Shown: piece by piece, positions 39,847-54,039 of the stretch
How positions within the stretch are numbered: the first letter of the stretch is position 1
How the letters are laid out: each line of letters opens with the position of its first letter
Assembly (NCBI GenBank): GCA_036139835.1
Contig: JAYZYW010000012.1
Location: 1 to 57,929, forward strand
Reading direction: 5' to 3'
DNA: 57,929 nt
Source of the DNA: Bacteroidota bacterium
GTDB taxonomy: Bacteria > Bacteroidota > Bacteroidia > Flavobacteriales > BACL11
Notes under the pieces: generated by a model
Told to the model about the DNA's origin: nothing
The model's database searches: none
The model's input: only the letters and a program-made list of their open reading frames with translations
Position numbers and translations under genes: made by a program

Positions 39847-39857
39847 TAAAAAATAAA

Positions 39858-39976: not shown

Positions 39977-40261
39977 TTATACACTAACCTTATCTTCAGC
40001 CCTATTAATTAAAATAGTTTCTGAAACAGGAGATCCCATGGACCAATATTTCCATCCATTAGCATAAAGATAGATGTAATATTGTCCATCTTTCCAGAGT
40101 TCTTTCATCCCATGTTTTCTAATATACAATACGGTATTCTCAAACTCAATGGGATTATCCCATTCTTTTTTTAAAGTATAATAATGGGGTATGTCAAGCA
40201 TAGTTTTAGCAAATCTATACTCCTTACTCTCTAATAACTGTATTATATCCACTCTCGCCAC
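39977..40261 (-). CDS. Hypothetical protein (94 aa), last gene of the island operon
   Basis: The ORF lies 4 nt downstream of the DUF4338-like gene. It contains PHYYTLKKEW...YWSMG...INRAE, and I cannot place the family. Confidence 0.5.
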   Translation of the reverse strand: MARVDIIQLLESKEYRFAKTMLDIPHYYTLKKEWDNPIEFENTVLYIRKHGMKELWKDGQYYIYLYANGWKYWSMGSPVSETILINRAEDKVSV

Positions 40262-40265
40262 CCTA

Positions 40266-42251
40266 TCAAAACTCTAAACTAGTTTGATTGGTTTTCTCTT
40301 TAATAACAACTCTTGAGATATGATTTATTGGGTAATATATATCGTGCTTTGAAACCTTGTCAATGATACTTTGGTTTTTTGTTCGCATTGAAAGCCAACG
40401 ACTAATCCAGTAATCAGAAATCAATTTTGTTATTTTTTTTCCGTTCTTAAGAGAAAAAGGATACTTAGGAACTTTTTCTAATCCTAACAAATAATCTCTA
40501 TAATTTACTGCTAAAGGAATAGCATAAATAATCCTTGGGTTTTTATGATTGAGTATTTGTGCAGCATCTAAATGTAGTTTATCAAGAGATGCTCTAAGAG
40601 CTCTTAATCTAGGGTTCGCTCCTTCACCAAAAATTGAATTCACTTTTCTAAGATTCAAACGAGTTAAATAAATATCCGACAATAATTTTGTTGTAGTACT
40701 TAAATGAAAGCTACCAAAGCCTTCTGTCTTACCAATTCTAATATATTTTATACAATTGTTTTTTCTTCTATTAGAAAAGATAGATGATGGAATTTTTATT
40801 CTATTGTATTGCGAAGCATTGTCACCATACAATGATGTAGTACCCAGAAAAACTAAATTACATTTAGGATATATAGCACAACCCTTCATTCCAGAGGCTA
40901 TCTTAGTTGCTCTTGATGCATACCTATTCTTGTATTCATTAATGATTTCAGGTGAACACAATAACATGGATACTAATTTTCCGCCCAATAATAACGAATA
41001 TGGACCTTGTACTGATCCACATGTAGATATATCCGCAATCTCATTACCTACCAATGAACCTTTATGTAATCGAATTAATTTACCGATTGCATTCTTAAAA
41101 CGATTCTGCTTACAAAGATCATTTATTGAAGAAGCATCTAAATTATTGTTAAAAAATGAATCGCAATCTTTTTTTATTGATAATAATAATTGTAACCTAT
41201 TTAACCTCTTGCTTAAGTATAAATTTGTAGTAGAGACATTTTCCCAATCTATGCTGTCAGATGCTAATAATTTTTTTATTTCACCTGGATTCATAATGTG
41301 TTTTTCTTTTGCCTCTAACGACAAGACTCTTAATCTTTGTATTATGACATCATTTGGCTTTTCTATATTAGATTTAGAAATTAATTTATTGTCAATCAAG
41401 TCATCAATCTTAATCGCGTCAAACTGTTTGTTAAACATACGAAACAGCCAATTAGATGTTTTCTTATTGGGATTTGCTATAATATACTCTATTATCTTTT
41501 CATTATTCCAGCCTATTAATTTCTCTCTTACTGATAATTGAGCCATTGCACTGTTTAATTCAAAAACCCCAATTACTGGATGATTCTCAACTGCAGCGTC
41601 TCTGACTAAAAATTTCATAGATCGACCAGGTATTGGCTTAGAAACGGAAGTCCAATTAAGTCTAAAATATTTCCAAATATCTAGTAATCTTAAACCAGTA
41701 AACTCGCATTTATCTTTTTCATTTACAACCTGAACATATGGCTGTATAATTTTTTTTAATTGCAGTATTCTCTGTTTTTCATTTTTAGTTCTTCTATTGA
41801 TATTATTTAACTCCTTAGCCATCTGCTGACCATCTCTGTATAGTGAGAATATAGAAACCCACTTATCCTTATAATATTTTTTACGATGTAGTTTTGAAAC
41901 AAAATTTTGAATAGTCTCTTTTGCCATAAAAGCATCTCTTTCGATGTTTTGCTTTGACATTACAATCTGTTTTGAGGGCTTGTCGTCCGAGAAAAACATA
42001 AACCCATTTTTGTAATTCCAATTCACTAATAGCAAATCAAGTGTTAAACTTTTGGTAAACATTAATTCAAGGGAAGCATCCGAAAGATCATTAGTAATGA
42101 TTAATTCTTTCTTGCAACTAACAAGAAATTCAACTCTATTTTCTTTTTTGATGCTTCTTGAAATTTTTTTAAAATACTTCTCGAAAAGATCTTTGTTCTC
42201 AGGGAATGTGAAAGTCGGATTATATGGGATTTTTTTTATCATATTAAGCAA
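40266..42251 (-). CDS. DUF4338 (Druantia DruA)-like protein, 661 aa
   Basis: GRSMKFLVRDAAVENHPVIGVFELNSAMAQLSVREKLIGWN resembles the DUF4338 core (G..lrYLV...lG.l.fs.aaw.l..RD.wIGW). A later LVFLGTTSLYGDNASQYNRI...IGKTEGFG resembles the family C-terminal block. This is recognised from memory, not computed. Its start overlaps the upstream GHKL gene by 8 nt. Confidence 0.55.
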   Translation of the reverse strand: MLNMIKKIPYNPTFTFPENKDLFEKYFKKISRSIKKENRVEFLVSCKKELIITNDLSDASLELMFTKSLTLDLLLVNWNYKNGFMFFSDDKPSKQIVMSKQNIERDAFMAKETIQNFVSKLHRKKYYKDKWVSIFSLYRDGQQMAKELNNINRRTKNEKQRILQLKKIIQPYVQVVNEKDKCEFTGLRLLDIWKYFRLNWTSVSKPIPGRSMKFLVRDAAVENHPVIGVFELNSAMAQLSVREKLIGWNNEKIIEYIIANPNKKTSNWLFRMFNKQFDAIKIDDLIDNKLISKSNIEKPNDVIIQRLRVLSLEAKEKHIMNPGEIKKLLASDSIDWENVSTTNLYLSKRLNRLQLLLSIKKDCDSFFNNNLDASSINDLCKQNRFKNAIGKLIRLHKGSLVGNEIADISTCGSVQGPYSLLLGGKLVSMLLCSPEIINEYKNRYASRATKIASGMKGCAIYPKCNLVFLGTTSLYGDNASQYNRIKIPSSIFSNRRKNNCIKYIRIGKTEGFGSFHLSTTTKLLSDIYLTRLNLRKVNSIFGEGANPRLRALRASLDKLHLDAAQILNHKNPRIIYAIPLAVNYRDYLLGLEKVPKYPFSLKNGKKITKLISDYWISRWLSMRTKNQSIIDKVSKHDIYYPINHISRVVIKEKTNQTSLEF

Positions 42252-43659
42252 AGTACAAAGCTAATATCTTAGAGAGATATTTCTGAAATTCTTTTTGTTT
42301 TTTTATGCTTAATACATTTCTTTCTGCCTCGATCAATGCAAATATAAATAATTCAACAAATACCCTTGCCTCATCATTTCTTACTTTTGTAAATACTTCT
42401 GAGTAAATAGGATGATGTTTATTTATAGTAATAACATCGCATCCTTCATTAGTCTCATATTCGTATAATATTTCTTTTGCCAGATAAGAAAATTTCAATT
42501 GCTTGTTTGAGCGTTTCTCATTAATTGAAACCAAACATTTTGAATTTTTCCCAATAAAGTTATCATTTTCATTTATTATCCTTTTAGTCTTACTAGAAGA
42601 CTCTGATCTTAGTGAGATAAACTTTTTAATAACTCTGGAGTATAAATCCCTACTTATTGACTGGAGATCATTATTCAAAATATTTGTAATATATTTGTTA
42701 GGGCTGATACCTTGTTTTGTATTTGTTACACCAAAGAACTGATCTAATACTGGCTCAAAAACAATTTCCATCCTCCACCAATAATCATAATTTTGATGTG
42801 GCTTTACAAAATAACTTCCCCTATCTATCTCTACATCAGATCTAATGATTGACACTCCTTTGTATGATGTTATAAGCATCTTCTTTTTTATTTTATTTGG
42901 AAGATAAGACCACTCTTGAATGGGTAATTCTACAAACCTCACAAGTATTTGAGAAATAGAATTAAAATGCGGCACTCTAACGTTATATTTAAGGGTCTTT
43001 CCATATTGTTTACCTCCTGTTGGGCTCCACCCCTTTTCCATAACATATAGAGGATCCCAATGCTGTATTCTTTCATTATTTAAATATAATCGAACACTAT
43101 CTCTAAATAGAAGGTATCTGTACCTAATTGCAAAGCACAATTTTAATTTTTTGATAAAAGCATTAAAATATTTTACATCAAGCCTGTCAACCTTGGTCAA
43201 CCTTACTAATGTTCCGTTTGAATCTAATTGCTTTTTTTTTGAAACTATACTTGAATCGAGTGCTAACTTTCCATTTTTTTGAATTTCATCATAATCTAAA
43301 TAGTTATAATACTCTTTACTCCCCTTTGCTCGTGTGTAAAATTCTATTCTACGAGCTAAAGATAAGCCAGCTTGCTTAAAGCCAACCCCATAACAGCCAA
43401 TACTATTCTTTTTATCTTTTTTTGTTGTTCCTCCAAATAAAAATGCACGATCTAACTCAGTTTGCAACATTCCAGATCCATCATCTTTAATCTCTATGCT
43501 AAATACATCATCTTGTTTTATAATAGTGATATGAATATTAAATGCAAGCGCATCAATTGCATTCTCAATAATTTCTGCAAGTGATGCGCAAGCATTTTTG
43601 TATCCTGATTGACGTTGAGCTCTTAAAAAATCTTTTGGATCTACAAGGTTTCGAGACAT
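42244..43659 (-). CDS. GHKL-superfamily ATPase, MORC/MutL-like (HATPase_c_3 type), copy 1
   Basis: Bergerat-fold motifs are AEIIENAIDA (N box), DDGSGM (G1) and GCYGVGFKQAG (G2). The downstream WWRMEIVFEPVLDQFFGVTNTKQGI block is shared with the 693-aa paralog. Confidence 0.85.
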   Translation of the reverse strand: MSRNLVDPKDFLRAQRQSGYKNACASLAEIIENAIDALAFNIHITIIKQDDVFSIEIKDDGSGMLQTELDRAFLFGGTTKKDKKNSIGCYGVGFKQAGLSLARRIEFYTRAKGSKEYYNYLDYDEIQKNGKLALDSSIVSKKKQLDSNGTLVRLTKVDRLDVKYFNAFIKKLKLCFAIRYRYLLFRDSVRLYLNNERIQHWDPLYVMEKGWSPTGGKQYGKTLKYNVRVPHFNSISQILVRFVELPIQEWSYLPNKIKKKMLITSYKGVSIIRSDVEIDRGSYFVKPHQNYDYWWRMEIVFEPVLDQFFGVTNTKQGISPNKYITNILNNDLQSISRDLYSRVIKKFISLRSESSSKTKRIINENDNFIGKNSKCLVSINEKRSNKQLKFSYLAKEILYEYETNEGCDVITINKHHPIYSEVFTKVRNDEARVFVELFIFALIEAERNVLSIKKQKEFQKYLSKILALYFA

Positions 43660-43662
43660 AAT

Positions 43663-44001
43663 CTAAGGTGTAAATATTTCAATATCGTAAATTAAAATAA
43701 AAACTCTCTTCTTTTTGTATGATTGGGTAGTGTCATCATCCCATGGGGCAGGAGACTCTTTAAGTGTTACGTCTAATTTATAAGGTTGGTGTTTTTTTAT
43801 CAAATACCCTTCATCTACCAGAAAAGTGTCTATCAAATATTTATTTTTTTGATAATCTTCTTTATTCCTCACAATCTCCCAATCAATACAAATACAATAT
43901 ATTCCCTTACCTTGACTCATATAAAAAACTCCTTCTTTCAGTTCATTGAGCGTTTTAAAAGTAATTGGATCTTTTAATCTTTTAGATAATCTATTTTTCA
44001 T
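43663..44001 (-). CDS. Hypothetical protein (112 aa)
   Basis: The ORF overlaps the upstream gene by 11 nt and ends 3 nt before the GHKL start. No motif recognised. Confidence 0.5.
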   Translation of the reverse strand: MKNRLSKRLKDPITFKTLNELKEGVFYMSQGKGIYCICIDWEIVRNKEDYQKNKYLIDTFLVDEGYLIKKHQPYKLDVTLKESPAPWDDDTTQSYKKKRVFILIYDIEIFTP

Positions 44002-45208
44002 CTTCTTTAATATTTATTTGGTTTATAGAATTCACTTTGGCTTGATGGAGTGCAATGGTTTTTACAGCTTCATTCTTTGTGGTCTCTTCATCAAGATCAA
44101 TTAACTCATTTGATTTCTGATTAGCAGGATTAATCTTCTGTCCCAACTCCATTTCTGTCGCTTGCTGCAATATATCTTCAGGAAGTAGGTGGATATTGTC
44201 CTTAAGAAAATTTAAAAGCCAATCATTAAAGAAAGTATTAACTTGAACAGTTCTTTTTCCAAAACTCATTAAACCGCTAACCACTCTTGCAATACCTTCA
44301 CTATCTTCTGGACCTAGGGTTTCGAAACACTCATAAATCTCTCTTTGTTTTAGGCTTAATAAAATCGTTTCAAGGGAGTCTAGTGTTATTACATGAACAG
44401 TATAGCTAGAATCACGATAAACTTTCTCTTTGATAACCTCGGCAGTATTCGATGGAATTACAAGATACAGATGTTTATGTACCGATTTATATTTTCCGTA
44501 TTTTCCAATGCTTGAAACCTGATTTTTAATGTATGTTGGAAAATTATCAAGGTTATCATTATATGGTGCCTTTGCATCAAAAATTACATAATCATTAACT
44601 ATTTGTATCGTGTTGTCAGGAGATTTACCTTCAAATGGAAAAGAATCTATATAAGCAATTCCATGTAAATCACATAAGTGCTTAATTACTGTCTGAACCA
44701 AATCCTGATGACTCTTCCAGGTTTTTCTTTTTTCCTCCCATGCATCACTCCTTGCTTGCTCCTGCTCATTAATTCTTCTTTGGATATCATCATTTAATTT
44801 TTGCTGAGTTGCATCTAATTGATTAATAGAATTTTTATGCTCCAAATTACGAGAATTCTCTTTTTGCTCATACTTATTTACAATTTCTTGTAATTCTTTG
44901 TTGGTTTGAGCTAAGGGAGTTAAATGATTAATACGTTCCTGAAAAATCTTATTATCACTTTTTAGAGATCTAATTTCTTCATTACAGTGATCAACATTAT
45001 TTTGTTTGATAGTAAGTGTTTCTTGAAGATTTGAATTCTCTACTAGCAATCTTTCATTAATCTGCATTGCATCATATACAATTGCCTTTATTTCAGAGAG
45101 TAAAATTAAGATTGATTGCCAATTAAAAAGCCTTGTTATCCAAGATGAATTAATTACTGATTCAATCTTTTCTTTAAATACGAATGGTTTTTCCAATATT
45201 GTTTTCAT
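43991..45208 (-). CDS. RmuC-like coiled-coil protein with a putative PD-(D/E)xK nuclease core
   Basis: The N-terminal ~170 aa are heptad-rich (LQETLTIKQNN...EEIRSLKSDNKIFQERINHL...). The C-terminal PDNTIQIVNDYVIFDAKAP resembles the RmuC (R)PD...vviDAK motif. Confidence 0.6.
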   Translation of the reverse strand: MKTILEKPFVFKEKIESVINSSWITRLFNWQSILILLSEIKAIVYDAMQINERLLVENSNLQETLTIKQNNVDHCNEEIRSLKSDNKIFQERINHLTPLAQTNKELQEIVNKYEQKENSRNLEHKNSINQLDATQQKLNDDIQRRINEQEQARSDAWEEKRKTWKSHQDLVQTVIKHLCDLHGIAYIDSFPFEGKSPDNTIQIVNDYVIFDAKAPYNDNLDNFPTYIKNQVSSIGKYGKYKSVHKHLYLVIPSNTAEVIKEKVYRDSSYTVHVITLDSLETILLSLKQREIYECFETLGPEDSEGIARVVSGLMSFGKRTVQVNTFFNDWLLNFLKDNIHLLPEDILQQATEMELGQKINPANQKSNELIDLDEETTKNEAVKTIALHQAKVNSINQINIKEDEK

Positions 45209-45210
45209 TA

Positions 45211-45522
45211 TTATAGTTTTAAATTATTAGTTTCAGTTTTCTCTAAGTGATATGCGATGCCAATTGTTACAAAATCAGTTAGCATTTCAAATTTTACATC
45301 AAGCGAAGCCTCTGGAAATTGAAAAATCATAAATTGTCTCATCTTTTCAAATTTCTCTTTGATTCCATTAGAGTAATGATATGGGCGCTCGGAAAGCATT
45401 TTGAGAGCTAAATACTCATACTTGTCCTGCCCAATTTCTGAAGGACATGATGGTGTTTTTTGGACTTGTTCTTTTTCCTTCTTTAGCTGTTTTTTAGTTT
45501 TAAATCCTATTTTTTGTGTCAT
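45211..45522 (-). CDS. Hypothetical protein (103 aa)
   Basis: The ORF lies 12 nt after the DUF932-like gene and 2 nt before the RmuC-like start. No motif recognised. Confidence 0.5.
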   Translation of the reverse strand: MTQKIGFKTKKQLKKEKEQVQKTPSCPSEIGQDKYEYLALKMLSERPYHYSNGIKEKFEKMRQFMIFQFPEASLDVKFEMLTDFVTIGIAYHLEKTETNNLKL

Positions 45523-45534
45523 TGTATTGTGTTT

Positions 45535-46644
45535 TTAGTTATTAATTAATGCGGGAAATGGGCTAGGCACCTTATTTGCCATATCATAATCTCCATAAAA
45601 GAGTTCTCCTGACTGACTTTGTAGTTTATGCCCCTGAGCATCTGTTATTTGATTATTATGAGAAGCGAAATCAGTAATCACATTAATCAACTCCCAAACA
45701 CTCATTGGAGATTCAGCATTTCGCTTTTCTTTAGCACTTAACTTATACATATTAATCCCCAATTTCTTATACTCAGTCTCAGCATGATTGATTGGTAAAT
45801 ATTCATTCACTGAATGCTTGTTCACTACTGAAGTGTTTAAAAGCAAATGTCTGGCCCTCATCATTTCATGAATCGAAGCTCGTGTATTTACTGCACTGAA
45901 CACGTGTTTATCAAATGATTGGGGCTTGAAGTTTCTACTTTCTAAAGCCTCAACTACATCAAGGAAATTATTGTAAGTCGTATGGTTTAGATCCTTCATT
46001 TGACAACTTTCCTCTAGTTTATTTGCAATCATTCCATTGGTACAAATTAATCGACCTAAATAGGTTGATAGTTGCACTCCACTATTAATAGAGTTAGTCA
46101 AACTAATCCCAGAGATAAAATCCTCGCCTGCAATACCATTTACAGACCAGTAATTCTCTGGAAGTAAGGTGTTGATATTTACATTCCCAGAGTCATCGAC
46201 CGACATTTCATTTACCTCTAAATTATTTCGGTTTATAATGTTTTCGGCAAGATCCAAGAAACTTACATTAGATATTAAATCATGCTTACGTTTTTTAAAA
46301 CCAATAACATGTTTGTTTTTTGGATTCACAAGCATCAGTAAAGTCATTGTAGAGTTATTAGCAGTTTCGTTTCTAAACCACTCAACAAATTTTATTTTCT
46401 GTTTAGCTGAAGAGTAATTTTCAATTTGACTCAACATACCCCTGCTAAGACCAAGTAATTGAAATAGGTCCTTCTTGGCATTCTCGTCTAATTGTAATCT
46501 TTTACCTTTATATTCGATAAAAGAGTCATTCTTCATTTCAATGTCGGTAAGTTTAACTGGCCTTGAAATGGGTTGAGCTTTAATTGCAACATTCTTTGTT
46601 TTTTCATATTCTGTTGCTGCAAGTACTTCAAAATTATTTGTCAT
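45535..46644 (-). CDS. DUF932-like (phage/plasmid-associated) protein
   Basis: About 370 aa, with a GRLICTNGM motif resembling the conserved (v/l)C.NG block of DUF932. The size fits. Tentative. Confidence 0.55.
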   Translation of the reverse strand: MTNNFEVLAATEYEKTKNVAIKAQPISRPVKLTDIEMKNDSFIEYKGKRLQLDENAKKDLFQLLGLSRGMLSQIENYSSAKQKIKFVEWFRNETANNSTMTLLMLVNPKNKHVIGFKKRKHDLISNVSFLDLAENIINRNNLEVNEMSVDDSGNVNINTLLPENYWSVNGIAGEDFISGISLTNSINSGVQLSTYLGRLICTNGMIANKLEESCQMKDLNHTTYNNFLDVVEALESRNFKPQSFDKHVFSAVNTRASIHEMMRARHLLLNTSVVNKHSVNEYLPINHAETEYKKLGINMYKLSAKEKRNAESPMSVWELINVITDFASHNNQITDAQGHKLQSQSGELFYGDYDMANKVPSPFPALINN

Positions 46645-46660
46645 TTTAATTAATTTTATG

Positions 46661-46681
46661 AGGGGCTCTTAAGCCCCCTCT
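46661..46681 (-). terminator. GC-rich intercistronic hairpin (GAGGGGC-TCTTAA-GCCCC(C)TC)
   Basis: A 7-bp stem with one bulge lies between the RadA-bL12 stop (46692) and the DUF932-like start (46644). There is no clear U-tract on the minus strand, so its function (terminator, attenuator or processing site) is unresolved. Confidence 0.35.
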
Positions 46682-46691
46682 GGTTATTATT

Positions 46692-47801
46692 TTAGTTAAT
46701 GTAGTCTGTTAGGAAAGAAGTTGATCCATAGAATTGTCTTAATTCTACTTCAGCACCTAATTTTTCAAGTTCGGTTTTCAAAGCTTCTGCTTCATCTTTA
46801 GCCACACCTTCTTTTACTGCTTTTGGTGCACTATCAACTATGTCTTTGGCTTCTTTTAGTCCTAATCCAGTAAATTCTTTTACAAGTTTAACTACTGCAA
46901 GTTTAGAACCACCAGCAACTGCTAATATAACATCAAATTCTCCTGCTTTCTTACTAGTAGTGTCAACGACCTCAAGTATTTCAGAATCTTGTGTCGAAGA
47001 GTCAGAGATCCAATCATCAAAAGTTTCCACTGCTTGAGATGAAACAGAAGTGTTTTTCTCGACAGTTTTCTCTAAAGACTGTTGCCTCCCATTTAACTTG
47101 GTATCAAAAATGAGTTTTCCTTCATTAGAAAAATTAAAGTACAGTGGCTTGTCTGTTTCTCCTTTTCTGTTTTTTATTGCAGTTATATAGCGACTGCAAT
47201 TATTACCCTCTCCTTTAACAATTCGAAACATGCCAGTAAGCATATGTTCAATACGCTTATTTCCTTTATAGTTTCCGCCTTTGGTAATTTGAAAAACAAT
47301 AAAGAAACTGGTAAACTTCCCTTTTTTGTTATCTCCTTTCTTGTGCTTAGTAAATAGTTGTAGTAAATATTTCTCCACAACATATCTTTTTTCATTATTC
47401 TGAATCATAATAGATTCCATTAGTTCATTAATAGAGTCTATAGTAACAACATCCCATCCAAGAGCCAATTTTTCTTCTATTTCTTTTTTGGGATTTTTTG
47501 AATTAAGAAGATCCAAATAAACTACTTCTCCCATCTCAATTCTAGTGCTATACTCCTCTATATCAGGCTCTTCCATTTCGCACTGTATGTTTAATACACG
47601 TAGAGATGTTTTTGCAATTTTACCTGATATGTAAAATGCAACGCTTGACTTTCCGCTTCCAGCATCACCATATATACCATATGATGTTGCGGGCGTTAAC
47701 CCTCCCTTGTAAGATAGAAGGTCATCAAATTTTGTGTTACTTAAAATAGGCACCTGTAATTTTTTAGGCGACTTAATGTTTTTTACTTTCTTTAGTTTCA
47801 T
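46692..47801 (-). CDS. RadA/Sms-like RecA-fold ATPase fused to a ribosomal protein bL12 (L7/L12) C-terminal domain
   Basis: The N-terminal domain has [21 protein letters not shown] (Walker A), VVTIDSI, and [22 protein letters not shown]...[10 protein letters not shown], which matches the RadA pattern (hvTKeG..aGp..LEH.vD......KNRfG). C-terminal residues 288-354 read [67 protein letters not shown]. This aligns nearly position for position with the E. coli RplL CTD ([67 protein letters not shown]). Confidence 0.85.
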
Positions 47802-47849
47802 AATTATTATTATTTTGATTAATAAATAGGGTTACATAGTCCACCTATC

Positions 47850-47875
47850 CCGGGGGATCTATCAGGGGCCCCCGG
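47850..47875 (-). terminator. GC-rich hairpin/palindrome (CCGGGGG-N12-CCCCCGG, containing GGGGCCCC)
   Basis: It lies between the 99-aa gene stop (47895) and the RadA-bL12 start (47801). It stands out as a short GC-rich stretch (23 of the 29 nt at 47847-47875 are G or C) in a locally AT-rich spacer. Confidence 0.3.
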
Positions 47876-47894
47876 TTTGGTGAACTAATGATAT

Positions 47895-48194
47895 TTAAGC
47901 TATTTGTTCCGCTAAATATCTTTGCTCTAGATAGCTAGAATTTTTCCATCCATCGATAAAAAAAAGGTATTGTGTAGCATTGAACCAAGTTTCCTCTTCT
48001 GTTTTTGGAATTGGCATAAGATGTTGTGTAGAAATATCTTTTCCATCCAAAAAAATTCTTGGCGAACCTTTAATATATACTAGTTTAGCTTTTGGAAAAT
48101 CTGTCAGCACTGTGTTTTTGTACTGGCTTAATTTTGATGCTTTTTTGCATCTTTTTTGTGAGGGCTTTACTTCCTCCATCATTAATTGTTTCAT
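47895..48194 (-). CDS. Hypothetical protein (99 aa)
   Basis: The first ORF after the 454-bp spacer. No motif recognised. Confidence 0.45.
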   Translation of the reverse strand: MKQLMMEEVKPSQKRCKKASKLSQYKNTVLTDFPKAKLVYIKGSPRIFLDGKDISTQHLMPIPKTEEETWFNATQYLFFIDGWKNSSYLEQRYLAEQIA

Positions 48195-48430
48195 TGTCTT
48201 AATTTTTAAATTAATATTATGTTAATGGAGGTTAATCAAAAACGGTTATTTTTCTTCTTGTCCCATCTCTACAAAGTAGAAATTAATGGTTCCAAGCCAA
48301 TCCTGGTAACCTCCTTAATTTTTGTTTGTTCAATTATTCTTTCTAAATAAGAGATGGCTGGTCTCCTGGATGAATAATTTAAGTCAACATGTAATTAATA
48401 ACATTGCATAAATGCACTTGTTTATATACG

Positions 48431-48446
48431 CCAAATTTTAATTTGG
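48431..48446. promoter_or_regulatory. Perfect 16-bp palindrome CCAAATTTTAATTTGG, a candidate operator, with the half-site TTAATTTGG repeated at 48466-48474
   Basis: It lies in the 454-bp non-coding gap upstream of the 99-aa/RadA-bL12 genes. A related palindrome, CCAAATTTGG, lies at 51600-51609 upstream of the GHKL-PLD pair. Confidence 0.3.
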
Positions 48447-48648
48447 TTAATGTTACTTTTTTACTTTAATTTGGGAAAATTGAATGCTTTTTCGTGTAGT
48501 ATTTCAATTATTCCTTGTTATTTGCCCACTATGAAATACAGGGAGTGTGTTAGACAAAAGGTAATTTCAGTAATTTTTTTAAGCATTTGAAAGAACTAAC
48601 TCTATTTATTTGACTAAACTAATTGAAAATAGTTTAATCGGTTCATAT

Positions 48649-49485
48649 TTAAGCAGCAGTTTTTAACAATTTTTTTGACAATTGCTGCGTATATGGTGTT
48701 TGGCATGAGGGGCATGCAAAATGCTCAATAAAATGCATCTGAAACCATGCCCCAACCAACAATTCATTACAGTTTTCACATTTAACTTTAATACAAATCG
48801 GATTTGAATTTAAAAACCAAATATGCCGATAGTTATTTAACAATAAGTTTTCTTTTGATGAATACAATTCTTTTATTTTAAACTTCTTAAATCGAAATGG
48901 ATGCCAAGAAAAATCTGTAATCCATTCTGATGATTTATATTCTTTTGCAACCCACAATGGATTATATATGTAGGGCTTGTATTTTGACAAGCCTAATCTG
49001 TGCTTTATTAATGGGGTTAAAAACTGATTCTCTACTGTTACCCCATTATTTACTATTTGTACACATGCAATGTCTTTTAAGTATTCAAACTCCTCTATAA
49101 ACGGTGAAATCACTTCTGATTTTACGTTTTCTAAGATTATTGTATTCTCAAAATTTCTCTCAGCATTATAGGTCCAGTTGTAACTACCAGTAATAAGCGT
49201 TTCTCTATCAATCACACAAAATTTATTATGCATTAAAGAAGAAGTTGTAGTTACATAGATCTTACACCCTAATTCCGAAAGATAATCAAAATATTGCATG
49301 TTAATGGATGCATTTTTATCTACAATCACTTCCACATCAATACCAGCAAAGGCTTTGTTGGCAAGTAATTTTAATATGTCTGCATTTGTAAAATAACACA
49401 TTGCTATTCTGATGGAATTTTTAGCACATAACAACTCATTGTAAAGTCTTGTACTAATATTATAGAAATAACTATTAATCTTCAT
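48649..49485 (-). CDS. PLD-superfamily (single HKD) nuclease-like protein with a C-terminal Cys4 zinc-ribbon
   Basis: LMHNKFCVIDRETLITGSYNWT is an HxK(x)4D...GSxN HKD motif. The C-terminal CENC...CPSC motif suggests a zinc ribbon. Its start overlaps the upstream GHKL gene by 11 nt. Confidence 0.85.
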   Translation of the reverse strand: MKINSYFYNISTRLYNELLCAKNSIRIAMCYFTNADILKLLANKAFAGIDVEVIVDKNASINMQYFDYLSELGCKIYVTTTSSLMHNKFCVIDRETLITGSYNWTYNAERNFENTIILENVKSEVISPFIEEFEYLKDIACVQIVNNGVTVENQFLTPLIKHRLGLSKYKPYIYNPLWVAKEYKSSEWITDFSWHPFRFKKFKIKELYSSKENLLLNNYRHIWFLNSNPICIKVKCENCNELLVGAWFQMHFIEHFACPSCQTPYTQQLSKKLLKTAA

Positions 49486-51556
49486 CAGGTGCAGTATTAG
49501 TAATATTATTCATTCCATATTTTCTAGCTAATCGCTCATAATTGATACTACTATATTCAGATATCGTTGCAATTCTTTGTCTCATTTCCATTGCAGGTAT
49601 TGTTCCAGATTTAGACAATAACTGCCCCCAGGAAATAAATAAAATATCAAGTATATCAGTAGTCATATCGCCTACTCCCTCATTAATATAAAATTCTTTT
49701 ATTAAGGGATGATCTGTATTGTATATTACCTTACATCTGCCAGGAGCGATAAGTTCTGCATCAAAAATTGGTGCCGTTGTCCCTCTGGATTCTAAAGCAG
49801 TAATAAAAGGCCTTTTTTTAATATCTCTCTCCAACTCATTTACTGCTTCTGCAATGAGTTCTTTTGTTTTAGGGCTCAAATTATCTTCCTCTAAATCATC
49901 TAAATCAATTTTTTTCTTTTCTAAAATAGATGCAACCTCTTTTTTCGCATTTTCTACTCCAATTAGTAGTACATCTTCACTCCAAGTTTCTGGCGACCAG
50001 TGCTTACTATGTTTTTTAGTTACCTGTTCTGCTTTAGAAGATTCCTTTTCTCGTTTTTTAATTACCTTTTCTAATGTTTGTTCACGTAACAAGTCTCTTG
50101 ATTTATTGTCAAGTTGTCTAAGAAACTGTGGAATACCTTTGTCAGATAAAAGATCCCATATTTTCTTGTTTAGTGTAATTTGTTGTTTATTTACTGTAAG
50201 TCCAAAATATTCGTCTAGTATAGGATCAAAATCTATCTCCATTCTCCAATAACGAGATTGATTTTGTAAAACCATATTATTCTTTTTATTTTCAAAGCTA
50301 GTTCTTGTTACTTCATCAATTTGTCTATTTTTTCTCGTAATAATAGCATATTGATATTTTTTTAATGTGGTCCACCTTCCTTTCATTGGCATACCATCAG
50401 CATCGAAATCGTCAGATTGATCACCCGGCATAGCCGAAAGATTCTTATTTTTTGGATCCCAAAGACGAACAAACTTTGGATGATAAAAAGCAAACCTTAT
50501 GGTAATATTTCCCCATTCCCCTTGGCTATTTTTGATTTGGAATTTAGAGGATTCATATCTCTTGGCAATAATTCCCATATCAAAAAGTTTCTTTCTTCCT
50601 TCTGTAGTAGGTTCAAAAGGAAACCCTTCTTTTGTTCCATCATGTTTAATCAGTTTTTTATCATACTCTTCAGTAAATTTATCATTAAGTCCCCGTTTAT
50701 GGTGTAAAAATGCTTCTGGCTCTAAGAATAATGGATCTTTTGGTGCTATAATAACATTGTTGACTTTGATAGTTATTTTCTTAAAGATAGCTGATCGGTA
50801 AGTTTCTGATAAATTATCAATAATGGAACTATGAAAATTTTGTGGTGTTGAATAGCCCCAAGTCAAACCACCATATTTTTTTGGAAATTTTACATGTACA
50901 ATGGTTCCTGATGTTAAGGTTGAAATCTTTTGTTTTTCATATAGGTATTCTTGTACCTTTTTAGGAATATCTTTTTTTTCTGGTTCTGGCACCATCACCA
51001 TACCTGTTTCTTTATGAACTAAATTACCATCTTCTTTCTCTAATTCCTTTTTGTTGATAGAAATTGAATACCAATCGGTTTTACTGTTCTTTGAATACAC
51101 CTCGTATTCTTCACTTAAAAATAATGCTGAACTTGGTAATCCAAAACCATACTTCCCCAGAAAGTTTCCTTTTTTCAAATGACGATGCGTCCCACCCCAC
51201 ATAACAGCTGTTTTCAATACATCTTTAGACATGCCGGTACCACTATCGATCACAAATATATCAGTGATCTCGTTGCTTTGTGGACGGGTATAGTAATAGA
51301 TGAAGATTTGGTCAGCACCGGATTCTATCGAATTATCAACCATTTCATTTATGGCCGAACCGGTTGATTTGTATCCACTATCTCGAATACTTCCTAGAAA
51401 TTGCTGCGTAGCTACTAATGGCAACCCCTTTCTGTGAAGATTGTTTAAGTGTTTTGCATAATCTTCTTGAAGTTGTGAATTGGTTTTCTGATTTACAGAA
51501 TCCAGTATTAGATTCTTCGCTACTTCTTTCTTTTCTTTTAATTGTTTTTTTGTCAT
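49475..51556 (-). CDS. GHKL-superfamily ATPase, MORC/MutL-like (HATPase_c_3 type), copy 2 (693 aa)
   Basis: Motifs are NEMVDNSIESGA (N box), DSGTGM (G1) and GKYGFGLPSS (G2). YWRMEIDFDPILDEYFGLTVNKQQI is shared with the 471-aa paralog. Confidence 0.85.
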   Translation of the reverse strand: MTKKQLKEKKEVAKNLILDSVNQKTNSQLQEDYAKHLNNLHRKGLPLVATQQFLGSIRDSGYKSTGSAINEMVDNSIESGADQIFIYYYTRPQSNEITDIFVIDSGTGMSKDVLKTAVMWGGTHRHLKKGNFLGKYGFGLPSSALFLSEEYEVYSKNSKTDWYSISINKKELEKEDGNLVHKETGMVMVPEPEKKDIPKKVQEYLYEKQKISTLTSGTIVHVKFPKKYGGLTWGYSTPQNFHSSIIDNLSETYRSAIFKKITIKVNNVIIAPKDPLFLEPEAFLHHKRGLNDKFTEEYDKKLIKHDGTKEGFPFEPTTEGRKKLFDMGIIAKRYESSKFQIKNSQGEWGNITIRFAFYHPKFVRLWDPKNKNLSAMPGDQSDDFDADGMPMKGRWTTLKKYQYAIITRKNRQIDEVTRTSFENKKNNMVLQNQSRYWRMEIDFDPILDEYFGLTVNKQQITLNKKIWDLLSDKGIPQFLRQLDNKSRDLLREQTLEKVIKKREKESSKAEQVTKKHSKHWSPETWSEDVLLIGVENAKKEVASILEKKKIDLDDLEEDNLSPKTKELIAEAVNELERDIKKRPFITALESRGTTAPIFDAELIAPGRCKVIYNTDHPLIKEFYINEGVGDMTTDILDILFISWGQLLSKSGTIPAMEMRQRIATISEYSSINYERLARKYGMNNITNTAPDED

Positions 51557-51560
51557 AACG

Positions 51561-51749
51561 TTATTTTAATAATTTATTAAAAATAAAATCACCTATCATC
51601 CAAATTTGGAAAATAGGAGAAAGCAAAACAGAATATGCTGTATAATCTTTACTGATAAAATTTTGGATTTGGAATCCCGAGTTTATGATTTTTTTCACTT
51701 TAAAATGATACATAATAAATTGCCGCTTTGACCAATTTATCATGCTCAT
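51561..51749 (-). CDS. Doubtful small ORF (62 aa)
   Basis: It ends 4 nt before the GHKL-2 start, which is suggestive. However, its composition looks like AT-rich spacer and there is no homology evidence. Confidence 0.2.
   Translation of the reverse strand: MSMINWSKRQFIMYHFKVKKIINSGFQIQNFISKDYTAYSVLLSPIFQIWMIGDFIFNKLLK
51600..51609. promoter_or_regulatory. Palindrome CCAAATTTGG about 45 nt upstream of the GHKL-2 start
   Basis: A perfect 10-bp palindrome with the same half-site as the 48431-48446 palindrome. Confidence 0.25.
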
Positions 51750-51891: not shown

Positions 51892-54039
51892 TTAAGTGCG
51901 TGAAAATAAAGTGGTTGTTAATTCTTGTTGTGCAACTAAAATTGGCCACCAAAATGCCTCTCCTTGCCACCCTAAATCACTTTTTCCATTTTGTCTTAGT
52001 AGAATTAATGTTGGGGTTTTCATTCCATGTTTTCTTGCCAATTGTAATTCGCTTTTTGACCCAGCAGCAGTATCAGGAACATCTTCAAATCTTCCGTCAA
52101 ATCTTTTTCTACTTATATTTCTGTTAGTTCGAACAATGAGGTTTATATAATTTGTATCCTTATCTTGTTTTATTAAATGCTTTGCAAGACTTTTCATCTC
52201 ACTTAATGGTAACTGGTAATGATCCTCAAAAAGCAAACCTTCCCAAATATTATCCATAATACTACAAAACTCTGTATAGGATATTTTTATTATTGTAGAT
52301 AAATCCTGTTGATATGGGTTGTATAATAAATGTAGAATATGATCTACACGCATTGTAATTTTTTTCTGTATAGATTGTGTTTGTGTGTTAAACCCGATTG
52401 GCAAGATACGTCTGCCAGCAGTAATAGTATGAACATCTGATAATAGCAGTTTATTAGGAGAGCAAGGGATTACGCCTTCCAATTCCCTTTGTATAAAATT
52501 AATGGGACAATTTGGGCCATTTTTTTCAATCGATTCCCACAATGCATTTTCAATTCTGTGCATACTTTCTAAAACACGGTATATCCCCAAACTTGTATAC
52601 ATTCTTGTTATTGCCATATCATTAATTGGTCTTGGACCGAAACATCTTAAATGCTGTAAAACTGTATCCATTTGAAATCTTCTTGGCGATCTTCCATACC
52701 AAAAAGCAATCAAATTTTCTACACTTATTCCTCTATCTAAAATTGTACCACCCACAAAAATCATAAAGGGAGAGGAAAGTTCTAATTGTCCTGTTGCTTC
52801 ATCCATTAAGGCCTCTGTATCAGTATCAGAATTAACTGTCTGCACACAGATATAACCATCAACTAGAGCGCTTTTCACACTTTCCAACACCTTCTTAAAT
52901 GAAGGCATTTTAGTATCTGATAATTTGTTTATTGAATATTTAAAATAATCGTAATAAACTTTTATTAGTTCAGCAAATGATTTAGAGTCTAACTGTAATA
53001 AAGAAGAGTAATTTCTAAGACAGCAAGCAACTATATCTGCTTGCCAATCGTGTCTAACCTTCTGTGTTTCGGTGTGTACAACAAAAGAATATTTTTTTGG
53101 TGTTACCTTTTGTTCTTTGTCTTGGATTCTTCGGATTGAACCCCCCACTATAAAATTTAATAATGCATCCCATAACCCATCAACTCCATGAATTCGAATA
53201 TTTGGATTTAATCTAATACTTCTAGGCGTTCGTAAAACTCTTAATTCATCATTTGTTATCTCCTCAAATATGTCGTGAAAAATGGATTCGCTTTCATTAC
53301 TTGGCAGATTAAAGAATTCATCTCCTCCTATGTATTTATCGTGTTTGGGAACAAGATGCGTAAATACTGGTCTTGTTGGTGCCAATAATTGCCCATTTAT
53401 TTCCTGATATCCATCAGGCTGTAAATAAAGAGAGTAAGGAGTAGCTGTTACTAACAGAAAATCCGAGTCAGTGAGTAATTTTCTGAAAGAACTGATTTGC
53501 CCCATAATTGTTCCTACTTGTATTTCTCCACTATTTCTTCTAAAACTAAGACCGCAAAAATCAGCTTCATCATCAATAATTAAAGTTTTACTTTTTTTTA
53601 GGCGATCGTGATTACGGTATGTTCTAATTAATCTGTTAAGATTGTCATCTTCTTTCTTTACACAAAAAATAAGTTTTTTATTTTGCTGATATCCAGAAAG
53701 CACATTTACTTTCATTATATCAAGAACTTCTACTAAGTCATCTTCAACAAATTCTTTAAATTCAGACCTCAATCTTTTATATGTTTGGCTCAAAAGGAAC
53801 TTTGTTCCTTTAGTTAACACAACTATTGACTCAAAACCATTATCTAATGCTAATGCAATTATACCACAGTATGCAAATGTTTTTCCAGCTTGCACTCTAC
53901 CCAGTAACATTCCTGGCTTTCTAGGTGAGGTTTGATTTGAAAGAAGATCTTCAACAGTACCCTCAATACATTTCGTAAGAGCAGTAGTATAATTTTCTTT
54001 CTGCTTTTTATATAAGTAAAATTTTCCGGTTTTTTTCAT
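51892..54039 (-). CDS. Z1-domain protein (SF2 helicase-like P-loop NTPase)
   Basis: Motifs are GRVQAGKT (Walker A), LIIDDEAD (Walker B/DEAD-like) and VTATP (motif III). The C-terminal FVGGTILDRGISVENLIAFWYGRSPRRFQMDTVLQHLRCFGPR matches the Z1 block (L.RGlT.eGL.vsYf.R.......DTL.Q..RWFGYR). Confidence 0.8.
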   Translation of the reverse strand: MKKTGKFYLYKKQKENYTTALTKCIEGTVEDLLSNQTSPRKPGMLLGRVQAGKTFAYCGIIALALDNGFESIVVLTKGTKFLLSQTYKRLRSEFKEFVEDDLVEVLDIMKVNVLSGYQQNKKLIFCVKKEDDNLNRLIRTYRNHDRLKKSKTLIIDDEADFCGLSFRRNSGEIQVGTIMGQISSFRKLLTDSDFLLVTATPYSLYLQPDGYQEINGQLLAPTRPVFTHLVPKHDKYIGGDEFFNLPSNESESIFHDIFEEITNDELRVLRTPRSIRLNPNIRIHGVDGLWDALLNFIVGGSIRRIQDKEQKVTPKKYSFVVHTETQKVRHDWQADIVACCLRNYSSLLQLDSKSFAELIKVYYDYFKYSINKLSDTKMPSFKKVLESVKSALVDGYICVQTVNSDTDTEALMDEATGQLELSSPFMIFVGGTILDRGISVENLIAFWYGRSPRRFQMDTVLQHLRCFGPRPINDMAITRMYTSLGIYRVLESMHRIENALWESIEKNGPNCPINFIQRELEGVIPCSPNKLLLSDVHTITAGRRILPIGFNTQTQSIQKKITMRVDHILHLLYNPYQQDLSTIIKISYTEFCSIMDNIWEGLLFEDHYQLPLSEMKSLAKHLIKQDKDTNYINLIVRTNRNISRKRFDGRFEDVPDTAAGSKSELQLARKHGMKTPTLILLRQNGKSDLGWQGEAFWWPILVAQQELTTTLFSRT

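What the first reader, a model, noticed from the sequence alone, without database searches (positions are those of the whole stretch)
39977..46644. Seven-gene tightly spaced run pairing a second GHKL ATPase with a DUF4338 (DruA)-like protein, an RmuC-like nuclease and a DUF932-like protein
The spacings between consecutive minus-strand genes are 12, 2, -11, 3, -8 and 4 nt. The order is DUF932-like, 103 aa, RmuC-like, 112 aa, GHKL-1, DUF4338-like, 94 aa. This spacing argues for a single co-translated unit. As far as I know, DUF4338 is known as the signature of Druantia type I DruA, always together with the giant DruE helicase and DruB-D, and none of those is present. As far as I recall, a GHKL/MORC ATPase whose stop overlaps a DUF4338 protein, preceded by a coiled-coil RmuC-type nuclease, is not a described system.
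Basis: partly seen in the sequence, partly recalled or inferred. Interest (0 to 1): 0.8.

Follow-up and report, generated by a model that had tools for sequence, protein, structure and literature searches.

The report
GHKL ATPase–DruA defence core without DruE
The seven tightly packed genes are real, but only the ATPase-plus-DruA pair is a widely conserved unit. That pair is the apparently unreported front end of Druantia type I phage-defence loci, here in a recurrent helicase-less form with added nuclease and phage-like genes.

Summary
**Observation.** The coordinates, strand and spacings are exact. The 661-aa protein is a full-length long-form DruA/DUF4338. The 471-aa protein is a MORC-like GHKL ATPase.

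- The "RmuC-like" protein is a coiled coil plus a PD-(D/E)xK nuclease. It has the RmuC architecture but belongs to a separate family.
- The "DUF932-like" protein is only a distant, sub-threshold relative of DUF932.
- The seven genes are not one conserved unit.

**What is conserved.**
- A ~500-aa GHKL gene sits directly upstream of long DruA in at least 77 of 83 loci from many phyla.
- Among 56 fully flanked loci, 33 carry Druantia-I genes (a 977-aa protein, DruD, DruE) and 23 do not.
- A second, ~620-aa GHKL is present in 21 of those 23, against 2 of the 33. It is often preceded by an ECF-type sigma factor.

**This window.** It belongs to the DruE-less class. Its second GHKL lies 5.8 kb upstream, with a Z1 helicase and a PLD nuclease. 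Between them sit a rare 103-aa/nuclease/112-aa cassette, which recurs with these genes in three short metagenomic contigs, and a phage-related pair (RecA-L12 fusion, DUF932-like).

**Verdict.** A new variant of a known kind. The mechanism is inferred, not shown.

The parts
40266..42251 (-). Long-form DruA (DUF4338), 661 aa (658 aa from the ATG). One half of the conserved core.
   Evidence: Pfam PF14236 E=2.1e-27 and PADLOC DruA1 E=2.2e-130. There are 2139 homologues, the best non-self at 43% identity. 80 columns are invariant across 69 sequences. The AlphaFold2 model has pLDDT 90.9 and pTM 0.90. Foldseek against the PDB is not significant (best E=0.7), but the list is dominated by acetyltransferases. 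PMC10853773 calls DUF4338 a GNAT domain.
42244..43659 (-). GHKL2: MORC-like GHKL ATPase, 471 aa. The obligate upstream partner of long DruA.
   Evidence: HATPase_c_3 E=1.9e-21, with weak MzaB and MutL hits. The closest PDB sequences are MORC4, MORC2 and MutL. The Bergerat motifs ExxxNAxD, DxGxG and GxxGxG are readable in the translation. An orthologous GHKL sits directly upstream of DruA in at least 77 of 83 loci.
39977..40261 (-). 94-aa orphan ORF (GTG start), 4 nt after DruA.
   Evidence: No Pfam, PADLOC, NCBIfam or PHROG hit. No relative in any of about 170 related loci. Whether it is a real gene is unproven.
43663..44001 (-). 112-aa protein, third gene of the nuclease cassette.
   Evidence: No family hit. 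A 32%-identical homologue holds the same position in L085. A weakly similar 116-aa positional equivalent is in L089.
43991..45208 (-). 405-aa protein: long coiled coil (about residues 30-165) followed by a PD-(D/E)xK (restriction-endonuclease-fold) nuclease domain.
   Evidence: P197-D198 and F210-D211-A212-K213 are invariant in 27 homologues. The AF2 model has pLDDT 77. The top Foldseek hits are all REase-fold nucleases: McrC (E=2e-3, probability 0.98), BspD6I, FokI, Hjc and VRR-NUC. There is no RmuC match.
45211..45522 (-). 103-aa protein, first gene of the nuclease cassette.
   Evidence: Homologues lie directly upstream of the nuclease gene in L085 (44-46% identity), L096 (32%) and L089 (28%).
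45535..46644 (-). 369-aa distant DUF932 relative with phage affinities.
   Evidence: PF06067 E=0.0038, below threshold. 5 of 7 family members hit DUF932 as their best family, best E=4.7e-4. Only 6 clusters exist in 5.8 billion. Relatives occur in a phage-like contig that carries a lysozyme (L093, 27% identity) and in jumbo phage LR756508.
46692..47801 (-). 369-aa RadA/KaiC-like P-loop ATPase fused to a ribosomal L7/L12 C-terminal domain. Outside the stated finding but in the same run.
   Evidence: Ribosomal_L12 E=3.4e-26 and KaiC-like ATPase E=4.9e-6. TIGR00855 scores 87 bits, at or above its cutoff, and RadA scores 3.8e-12. Its adjacency to the DUF932-like gene is conserved in L096. The ATPase part has a relative in the same jumbo phage.
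47895..48194 (-). 99-aa protein.
   Evidence: No family hit. A 42%-identical homologue follows the GHKL1-type gene in L085.
48649..49485 (-). PLD/HKD-type putative nuclease, 278 aa. It overlaps the GHKL1 stop by 11 nt.
   Evidence: PLDc_2 E=1.4e-25 and PADLOC DrmC E=1e-12. The HxK motif LMHNKFCVID is readable. A PLD gene holds the same position in L001.
49475..51556 (-). GHKL1: a second, longer MORC-like GHKL ATPase, 693 aa. It is the partner that replaces DruB-D-E in DruE-less loci.
   Evidence: HATPase_c_3 E=4.8e-17. GHKL1-type genes are present in 21 of 23 DruBDE-less loci against 2 of 33 DruBDE-containing loci (Fisher p=4e-11).
51892..54039 (-). Z1-domain superfamily-II helicase, 715 aa.
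   Evidence: Z1 E=3.8e-22 plus weak DEAD and ResIII hits. PADLOC Helicase_II E=4.4e-53. The sequence DTVLQHLRCFG fits the DThhQXuRhFG motif of the helicases in MORC operons described in PMC2292703. An orthologue (E=9e-202) lies upstream in L001.

Best explanation
The finding is the downstream part of a roughly 14-kb, 12-gene co-directional defence island (39977-54039). Housekeeping genes flank it on both sides.

**Core.** The two-gene pair GHKL2 (a MORC-like ATPase) plus long-form DruA (a GNAT-like fold) is the conserved core. The same pair sits at the front of Druantia type I-like loci. It works with interchangeable partner modules:
- the 977-aa protein, DruD and the DruE helicase (classical Druantia I), or
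- as here, a second paralogous GHKL ATPase (GHKL1).

**This lineage.** GHKL1 comes with a Z1 helicase and a PLD nuclease. Two further cassettes lie between GHKL1/PLD and GHKL2-DruA:
- a 103-aa / coiled-coil PD-(D/E)xK nuclease / 112-aa trio;
- a phage-derived RecA-L12 ATPase plus a DUF932-like protein.

**Proposed working (inferred, not shown).** The MORC-like ATPases act as ATP-driven DNA clamps that engage invading DNA. DruA acylates or otherwise licenses a partner or target. The Z1 helicase, the PLD nuclease and the coiled-coil nuclease are the DNA-degrading effectors that stand in for DruE.
For: **Shown by tool results**
- Gene order and junctions of 12 nt or less.
- DruA and GHKL identities.
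- The GHKL-DruA pair occurs in at least 77 of 83 loci across at least 7 phyla, in all 5 viral-contig loci and on a Roseivivax plasmid.
- Partner switching: GHKL1 is present in 21 of 23 DruBDE-less loci against 2 of 33 DruBDE loci, p=4e-11. GHKL1-type loci sit at 8 or more separate places in a rough DruA neighbour-joining tree.
- L004 confirms that DruD1 (E=2.5e-102) and DruE1 (E=0) lie next to a GHKL-DruA pair.
- The closest DruA locus, L001, has Z1 / 210 aa / GHKL1 / PLD / 77 aa / GHKL2 / DruA.
- The cassette recurs with these genes: L089 has 103-like / nuclease / 116 aa / GHKL2 / DruA; L085 has GHKL1 / 99-aa homologue / 205 aa / 103 / nuclease / 112; L096 has RecA-L12 / DUF932 / 103 / nuclease.
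- The nuclease active-site motif is intact and the fold is REase-like.
- The PLD protein resembles DrmC.
- The island is flanked by a pterin dehydratase gene and a phosphodiesterase gene.

**From the literature**
- DUF4338 is called a GNAT domain in PMC10853773.
- MORC/Z1/nuclease operons are predicted restriction-like systems in PMC2292703.
Against: - No experiment bears on this island, so defence activity is inferred from homology and context only.
- The GNAT assignment is weak here: Foldseek's best E is 0.7 and there are no sub-threshold acetyltransferase Pfam hits in 69 members.
- Most DruE-less loci carry no obvious nuclease and instead have a sigma factor next to GHKL1. The window lacks that sigma factor, so the 'effector' logic may not generalise.
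- The wider family of the 405-aa nuclease is mostly solitary among housekeeping genes. None of 80 metagenome loci has a GHKL or DruA gene.
- L085 ends 137 nt after the 112-aa homologue without a GHKL2 start.
- The three supporting contigs are short (1.8-4.3 kb), and two come from one study.
- The census covers the best 80 of 415 hits and is not phylogenetically corrected.
Confidence: 0.5

Rival explanations
1. The island holds three or four independent defence systems side by side, compacted onto one strand:
- a Z1-helicase / MORC / PLD restriction-like system;
- a stand-alone coiled-coil nuclease trio;
- an orphan GHKL2-DruA pair;
- phage-derived cargo.

On this reading the tight spacing reflects island compaction, not joint function.
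For: - L001 lacks the whole middle block.
- Relatives of the 405-aa nuclease also sit in front of a type I R-M operon (L090/L091) or alone.
- L085 appears to end after the trio.
- Z1 + MORC + nuclease is already a predicted self-contained system.
- Gaps of 454 nt and 335 nt could hold separate promoters.
Against: - GHKL1-type genes accompany GHKL2-DruA in 21 of 23 DruE-less loci, mostly with no Z1 or PLD gene, so GHKL1 is tied to the core rather than to Z1/PLD.
- The trio abuts GHKL2 by 3 nt here and overlaps it in L089.
- The close subfamily of the trio (46-58% identity) has so far been seen only next to these GHKL, DruA, RecA-L12 or DUF932-like genes.
Confidence: 0.3
2. The GHKL-DruA module (with sigma factor and GHKL1) is not an anti-phage system. 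It is a regulatory, establishment or anti-defence module of mobile elements, and this island is the remnant of such an element.
For: - ECF-type sigma factors lie next to GHKL1 in 14 loci.
- Neighbours include conjugation or mobile-element genes in L004 (TraG, TraI_2), L002 (ArdC, serine recombinase) and L001 (ParB, PRTase-CE).
- Integrases occur in several loci, and there are plasmid copies.
- The DUF932-like and RecA-like genes have phage relatives.
Against: - About half of the loci are bona fide Druantia-I arrangements with DruD and DruE. From my own knowledge, Druantia type I was shown to defend (Doron et al. 2018).
- The window has no integrase, tRNA gene or transfer genes.
- DruA is very rare in viral contigs: 5 loci in 2.9 million.
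- Carriage on mobile elements is typical of defence systems too.
Confidence: 0.12
3. The locus is a decayed Druantia type I system that lost DruB-E. It is functionally dead cargo.
For: DruB, DruD and DruE are absent from the whole window. Annotation pipelines label such loci only as 'DruA'.
Against: - All 80 family-invariant DruA residues are retained.
- The ORFs are intact and the GHKL, PLD and nuclease motifs are intact.
- The DruE-less architecture recurs in at least 7 phyla with a specific replacement partner.
Confidence: 0.05

Closest known systems
Druantia type I (DruA-DruB-DruC-DruD-DruE; Doron et al. 2018, cited from my own knowledge; PADLOC models)
   Same: It has the same DruA family, matching the long PADLOC DruA1 model nearly end to end. 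In related loci the same GHKL-DruA pair lies directly beside DruD1 and DruE1.
   Different: No DruB/C-type, DruD or DruE gene occurs in the window. A second GHKL ATPase, a Z1 helicase, a PLD nuclease and a PD-(D/E)xK nuclease are present instead. The GHKL partner of DruA is not part of the published five-gene definition, as far as I could find.
MORC/paraMORC + Z1-type SF-II helicase + nuclease operons (Iyer, Abhiman & Aravind 2008, PMC2292703); MZA system (MzaB GHKL, MzaC Z1) in PADLOC/NCBIfam
   Same: The Z1 helicase carries the DThhQXuRhFG-type motif. It is followed by a MORC-like GHKL and a nuclease. There are weak MzaB and MzaC hits.
   Different: The nuclease is PLD/HKD rather than REase-fold. 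The MzaB and MzaC scores are far below the equivalog cutoffs (61.6 bits against 850). No AIPR or methylase gene is present. A second GHKL and DruA are present, which those systems lack.
RmuC (PF02646; E. coli b3832)
   Same: Both have an N-terminal long coiled coil followed by a PD...(D/E)xK nuclease motif. E. coli RmuC reads PDVIVRLPQGKDVVIDAK. The window protein reads PDNTIQIVNDYVIFDAK. Most members of both families are solitary chromosomal genes.
   Different: No sequence or profile similarity is detectable. The family is small and discrete, with 587 representative clusters. The window protein has no N-terminal membrane helix.
DUF932 proteins of prophages and integrative elements (PF06067)
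   Same: Sub-threshold but consistent matches cover the C-terminal two thirds in 5 of 7 members. Relatives occur in phage contigs.
   Different: It scores below the gathering threshold (17.5 bits against 23) and belongs to a very rare subfamily of 6 clusters.
DISARM DrmC / Nuc-like PLD nucleases
   Same: The PLDc_2 domain has an HxK motif, and the best PADLOC hit is DrmC.
   Different: No DrmA, DrmB or other DISARM components are present. The protein has a C-terminal extension with a Cys-rich tail.

Membership tests
DruA / DUF4338 (PF14236) | Significant match to the family profile above the curated cutoff | tested here: met
   96.5 bits against a cutoff of 27, E=2.1e-27. PADLOC DruA1 E=2.2e-130, nearly full length.
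Druantia type I system | DruA present | tested here: met
Druantia type I system | DruE (YprA-like giant helicase) encoded in the locus | tested here: not met
   tblastn of a DruE1 orthologue (L004, PADLOC E=0) against the whole window gives no hit at E<=1e-3.
Druantia type I system | DruB/DruC/DruD encoded in the locus | tested here: not met
   The DruD1 orthologue and the 949-aa DruB/C-position protein of L004 have no hit in the window. No PADLOC DruB, DruC or DruD hit beyond one chance-level DruC match (E=0.082).
Druantia type I system | Protects against phage | not testable with these tools
   Needs an experiment.
GHKL / MORC-like ATPases | Bergerat ATP-binding fold with N-box, G1 and G2 motifs | tested here: met
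   HATPase_c_3 E=1.9e-21 (471 aa) and 4.8e-17 (693 aa). The motifs are readable. The nearest PDB sequences are MORC4 and MORC2.
GHKL / MORC-like ATPases | S5-fold transducer domain after the GHKL domain | not tested
   No structure model was made of either GHKL protein.
RmuC (PF02646) | Match to the RmuC profile or to a bona fide RmuC | tested here: not met
   0 of 27 family members hit PF02646 at E<=1. hhalign against E. coli RmuC gives probability 0.3.
RmuC (PF02646) | Coiled coil followed by a PD-(D/E)xK nuclease domain | tested here: met
   Helix 30-165 followed by an alpha/beta domain. Invariant PD...DAK motif. REase-fold Foldseek hits.
DUF932 (PF06067) | Match above the gathering score | tested here: not met
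   17.5 bits against a cutoff of 23. However, 5 of 7 relatives have DUF932 as their best sub-threshold family, so it is a distant relative at most.
MZA / MORC-Z1 restriction-like systems | Z1-domain helicase next to a GHKL ATPase | tested here: met
   Z1 E=3.8e-22. GHKL1 lies 335 nt downstream on the same strand.
MZA / MORC-Z1 restriction-like systems | MzaB/MzaC equivalog-level similarity and an AIPR component | tested here: not met
   MzaB scores 61.6 and 24.8 bits against a cutoff of 850. MzaC E=5.1e-11, partial only. No AIPR hit in the island.
GNAT acyltransferases (for DruA) | GNAT fold with an acyl-CoA binding motif | tested here: inconclusive
   The model is of high confidence, but Foldseek's best E is 0.7. 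Acetyltransferases dominate the list. No Pfam acetyltransferase signal in 69 members. The assignment rests on PMC10853773.

The most novel reading that the evidence does not exclude
GHKL2-DruA (a MORC-like ATPase plus a GNAT-like enzyme) is an autonomous, ancient sensing or licensing module of prokaryotic immunity. It plugs into interchangeable output modules:
- the DruB-D-E helicase complex in classical Druantia I;
- a paralogous GHKL plus an ECF sigma factor in a hitherto undescribed DruE-less family found in at least 7 phyla;
- in this lineage, a Z1 helicase, a PLD nuclease and a coiled-coil PD-(D/E)xK nuclease.

That would redefine Druantia type I as 'GHKL-DruA plus output'. It would also give an entry point to the mechanism of Druantia I, for which I found no mechanistic study in the searchable library.
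Probability: 0.35. Interest if true: 0.75.

Novelty: new variant of a known kind. Interest (0 to 1): 0.62.

Why it matters
I found no paper in the searchable library that characterises how Druantia type I works or what DruA does.

The data give three concrete handles:
- Long-form DruA almost always has a MORC-like ATPase partner.
- That pair survives without DruE when a second GHKL ATPase is present.
- This offers a smaller system (three or four genes) for dissecting DruA function.

It also means current annotation is incomplete. Pipelines label such loci 'DruA' plus 'ATP-binding protein', so they miss a recurrent system.

The window's version adds candidate nuclease effectors. These could show what the core controls.

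Tried and rejected
- **RmuC membership of the 405-aa protein.** Rejected at sequence level by Pfam on 27 members, a profile search of PDB sequences, hhalign against E. coli RmuC and an exhaustive HMM search.
- **Attachment-site repeats around the island.** The 33-nt direct repeat at 39840 and 55021 looked like an att pair. Its 18-nt core occurs 5 times in the window in intergenic DNA, so I rejected it as att evidence.
- **tRNA genes, Rfam RNAs, promoters and terminators in the island.** Nothing informative came out.
- **A sigma-factor gene in the window**, as seen in related loci. None was found.
- **GNAT support for DruA from sub-threshold Pfam hits.** None was found. A profile search of PDB sequences also gave nothing.
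- **Plasmid relatives of the DUF932-like protein.** None was found.
- **GHKL or DruA genes next to the wider nuclease family.** 0 of 80 metagenome loci have them.
- **The YprA-helicase preprint.** It has no GHKL, MORC or GNAT mention.

Full report

Yes. The seven minus-strand ORFs lie exactly where stated. Their spacings are 12, 2, -11, 3, -8 and 4 nt.

- The 661-aa product is a full-length DruA. Pfam PF14236 scores 96.5 bits (cutoff 27). The long PADLOC DruA1 model scores E=2.2e-130 over positions 104-666 of 675.
- The 471-aa product (GHKL2 below) is a GHKL ATPase (HATPase_c_3, E=1.9e-21). All three Bergerat motifs are readable. Its nearest solved relatives are MORC4, MORC2 and MutL.
- No relative of DruD, DruE or the DruB/C-position protein occurs anywhere in the 57.9-kb window.

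The block's upstream edge is arbitrary. The same strand continues as follows:

| Gene | Coordinates | Gap to the next gene downstream |
|---|---|---|
| RadA/KaiC-like ATPase fused to an L7/L12 C-terminal domain | 46692-47801 | 47 nt |
| 99-aa gene | 47895-48194 | 93 nt |
| PLD nuclease | 48649-49485 | 454 nt |
| Second GHKL ATPase (GHKL1, 693 aa) | 49475-51556 | overlaps PLD by 11 nt |
| Z1-domain SF-II helicase | 51892-54039 | 335 nt |

Housekeeping genes flank the island: a pterin dehydratase and a phosphodiesterase lipoprotein. The host looks like a low-GC Bacteroidota, because a gene with a T9SS sorting domain lies nearby. I found no tRNA gene, no Rfam RNA and no informative promoter or terminator signal.

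**2. What the individual products are**

*The 405-aa 'RmuC-like' protein.*
- The AlphaFold2 model (pLDDT 77) shows one long helix, residues 30-165, followed by an alpha/beta domain.
- In 27 homologues, P197-D198 and F210-D211-A212-K213 are invariant. This is a canonical PD-(D/E)xK motif.
- The top Foldseek matches in the PDB and in the viral library are all restriction-endonuclease-fold nucleases: McrC (E=2e-3, probability 0.98), BspD6I, FokI, Hjc and VRR-NUC.
- It therefore shares RmuC's architecture and motif spacing; compare E. coli RmuC.
- It is not a detectable RmuC family member. None of 27 members hits PF02646. hhalign against E. coli RmuC gives probability 0.3. An exhaustive profile search finds a discrete family of only 587 representative clusters.

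*The 369-aa 'DUF932-like' protein.*
- It is a distant relative at best. It scores 17.5 bits against a cutoff of 23, although 5 of its 7 relatives have DUF932 as their best sub-threshold hit.
- The family is extremely rare: 6 clusters in 5.8 billion.
- Its distant members sit in phage-like DNA: a contig with a lysozyme gene, and jumbo phage LR756508. The same jumbo phage also encodes a relative of the RecA-like ATPase.

*The small proteins.* The 94-, 99-, 103- and 112-aa products match no library.

*DruA.*
- It gives a very confident model (pLDDT 90.9, pTM 0.90).
- No solved structure matches significantly (best E=0.7). The Foldseek list is dominated by acetyltransferases: Hpa2, HAT1, NAT10, p300, MYST and Gna1.
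- This agrees weakly with the statement in PMC10853773 that DUF4338 is a GNAT domain.
- Pfam gives no independent support.

**3. What is conserved elsewhere**

DruA has 2139 homologues in the protein collection, and the best non-self hit is only 43% identical. A scan of one genome per GTDB species found 415 relatives, and I analysed the best 80 loci plus three from contig look-ups.

*The GHKL-DruA pair.*
- A ~500-aa GHKL gene lies directly upstream of DruA on the same strand in 77 of 83 loci, usually overlapping or within a few nucleotides.
- Two of the six exceptions (L073, L076) also show a GHKL gene just upstream. They appear to be artefacts of my ORF selection.
- All five viral-contig loci and a Roseivivax plasmid show the same pair.
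- On that plasmid the pipeline annotates only 'ATP-binding protein' and 'DruA'.

*Two alternative partner sets.*
- Among 56 loci with at least 8 kb on both sides, 33 carry Druantia-I genes. These are a ~977-aa protein, DruD (PADLOC DruD1, E=2.5e-102) and DruE (DruE1, E=0).
- The other 23 lack them.
- 21 of those 23 carry a second, longer GHKL (~610-640 aa, the window's GHKL1 type), against 2 of the 33 (Fisher p=4e-11).
- In a rough neighbour-joining tree of DruA, the DruE-less loci appear at 8 or more separate places, so this is not one inherited accident.
- In 14 loci an ECF-type sigma-70 factor sits directly upstream of GHKL1. The window has none.

*Position of the window.* Its DruA groups with Bacteroidota DruE-less loci. 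Its nearest relative is L001, with the order Z1 / 210 aa / GHKL1 / PLD / 77 aa / GHKL2 / DruA. This is the window's outer architecture without the six genes in the middle.

**4. The middle block**

None of the 94-, 112-, 405-, 103-, DUF932-like, RecA-L12 or 99-aa products has a relative in the 84 DruA loci. The seven-gene run as a whole is therefore not a conserved unit.

The block is not random cargo either. Three short metagenomic contigs carry its closest relatives in the same order:

| Contig | Gene order |
|---|---|
| L089 | 103-like / nuclease (46% identity) / 116 aa / GHKL2 / DruA N-terminus |
| L085 | GHKL1 C-terminus / 99-aa homologue / 205 aa / 103 / nuclease (52%) / 112, then apparently the end of the operon |
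| L096 | RecA-L12 C-terminus / DUF932-like (58%) / 103 / nuclease N-terminus |

More distant nuclease relatives (31-38% identity) behave differently. Some overlap the start of a type I R-M operon. Most are solitary among housekeeping genes, and 0 of 80 metagenome loci have a GHKL or DruA gene nearby.

My reading is that a small sub-clade of a mostly housekeeping nuclease family, with its two small companions, was recruited into this GHKL/DruA island. The RecA-L12 and DUF932-like pair occupies a variable slot; L085 has a 205-aa gene there.

**5. How it most likely works**

*Shown:* gene order, domain identities, the conserved pairing and the switching of partners.

*Inferred:*
- GHKL2-DruA is a sensing or licensing core.
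- MORC-type GHKL ATPases are ATP-driven dimerising DNA clamps. This rests on general knowledge of MORC and MutL and on the argument in PMC2292703.
- DruA is probably an acyltransferase-like enzyme.
- The output is DruB-D-E in classical Druantia I, and GHKL1 (with or without a sigma factor) in the DruE-less class.
- In this window the Z1 helicase, the DrmC-like PLD nuclease and the coiled-coil PD-(D/E)xK nuclease are plausible DNA-degrading effectors.

I put about 0.5 on this integrated-system reading. I put 0.3 on 'several adjacent systems', 0.12 on a regulatory or establishment role for a mobile element, and 0.05 on a dead remnant.

**6. Comparison with what is known, and novelty**

- The locus is not a member of Druantia type I as defined, because DruE and DruB-D were tested and are absent.
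- It contains a Z1 / MORC / nuclease arrangement of the kind predicted in 2008. Its scores are far below the MZA equivalog thresholds, and it has no AIPR component.
- In the searchable literature I found no paper linking Druantia or DruA to a GHKL ATPase, and none characterising DruA. That library is incomplete, so prior description elsewhere cannot be excluded.

I rate it a new variant of a known kind, with moderately high interest.

**7. Limits**

- ORF calling in the related loci was naive: longest-ORF greedy selection.
- The census covers the 80 best of 415 hits and is not phylogenetically corrected.
- The three contigs that support the cassette are short, and two come from one study.
- Nothing here is experimental.

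Noticed in passing
window 36765, 38632, 39855, 55036, 57257 (+ strand): The 18-nt motif AAAGTCGGGAWGAGAGGA occurs five times, always in intergenic DNA (0.01 expected by chance). Four copies lie 18-60 nt upstream of the start codons of minus-strand genes. It is probably a host promoter or 5'-UTR element. The copies at 39855 and 55036 bracket the island and could be mistaken for att repeats.
   Followed up: partly
window 46692-47801 (-): A RadA/KaiC-like P-loop ATPase is fused to a complete ribosomal L7/L12 C-terminal domain (the NCBIfam L12 model scores at or above its cutoff). This is an unusual fusion. The L12 C-terminal domain normally recruits translational GTPases. The fusion is conserved in L096, and the ATPase part has a relative in jumbo phage LR756508.
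   Followed up: partly
L005, L006, L009, L010, L012, L023, L034, L035, L037, L039, L043, L068, L074, L082 (gene directly upstream of the ~620-aa GHKL): An ECF-type sigma-70 factor (~200-235 aa; Sigma70_r2 plus r4) directly precedes the GHKL1-GHKL2-DruA genes in 14 loci. A sigma factor is also adjacent on the Roseivivax plasmid (L099). A sigma factor inside a defence-like operon is unexplained.
   Followed up: partly
L090 9985-11199 and L091 3506-4720: A 35%-identical relative of the coiled-coil nuclease overlaps the start of a type I R-M operon (hsdR-hsdM-hsdS) and is preceded by two small genes. This is a second, different defence context for the family.
   Followed up: no
L098 (Hymenobacter canadensis plasmid NZ_CP114768) 9067-12225: A 1052-aa protein is annotated DruA, with the DruA domain N-terminal and about 550 extra residues of unknown nature. 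It sits divergently from a 1578-aa DUF3883/NOV_C protein, and there is no separate GHKL gene upstream.
   Followed up: no
L034 and L037 (two contigs of one Cyclobacteriaceae MAG): One genome carries two copies of the sigma / GHKL1 / GHKL2 / DruA module. Each is followed by a TIR-domain protein and a ~500-aa partner.
   Followed up: no
L092 (jumbo phage LR756508.1, 453700-454764 and 420990-421715): One 484-kb uncultured phage encodes relatives of both the DUF932-like protein (23% identity, E=2e-28) and the RecA-like ATPase (29% identity), about 32 kb apart. This suggests both window genes are of phage origin.
   Followed up: partly
window 56211-56675 (-): A predicted lipoprotein is built of tandem ~20-residue repeats (STYSKDAFGNTVKKDAYGNT...). 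The opposite strand carries a mirror-image repetitive ORF.
   Followed up: no
L001 12058-20458: Convergent with the closest DruA locus are a Card1-type CARF nuclease, a PLD protein and a 1300-aa AAA_11/AAA_12 helicase. Upstream lie ParB and a PRTase-CE gene. So L001 is itself a dense defence or mobile-element island.
   Followed up: no
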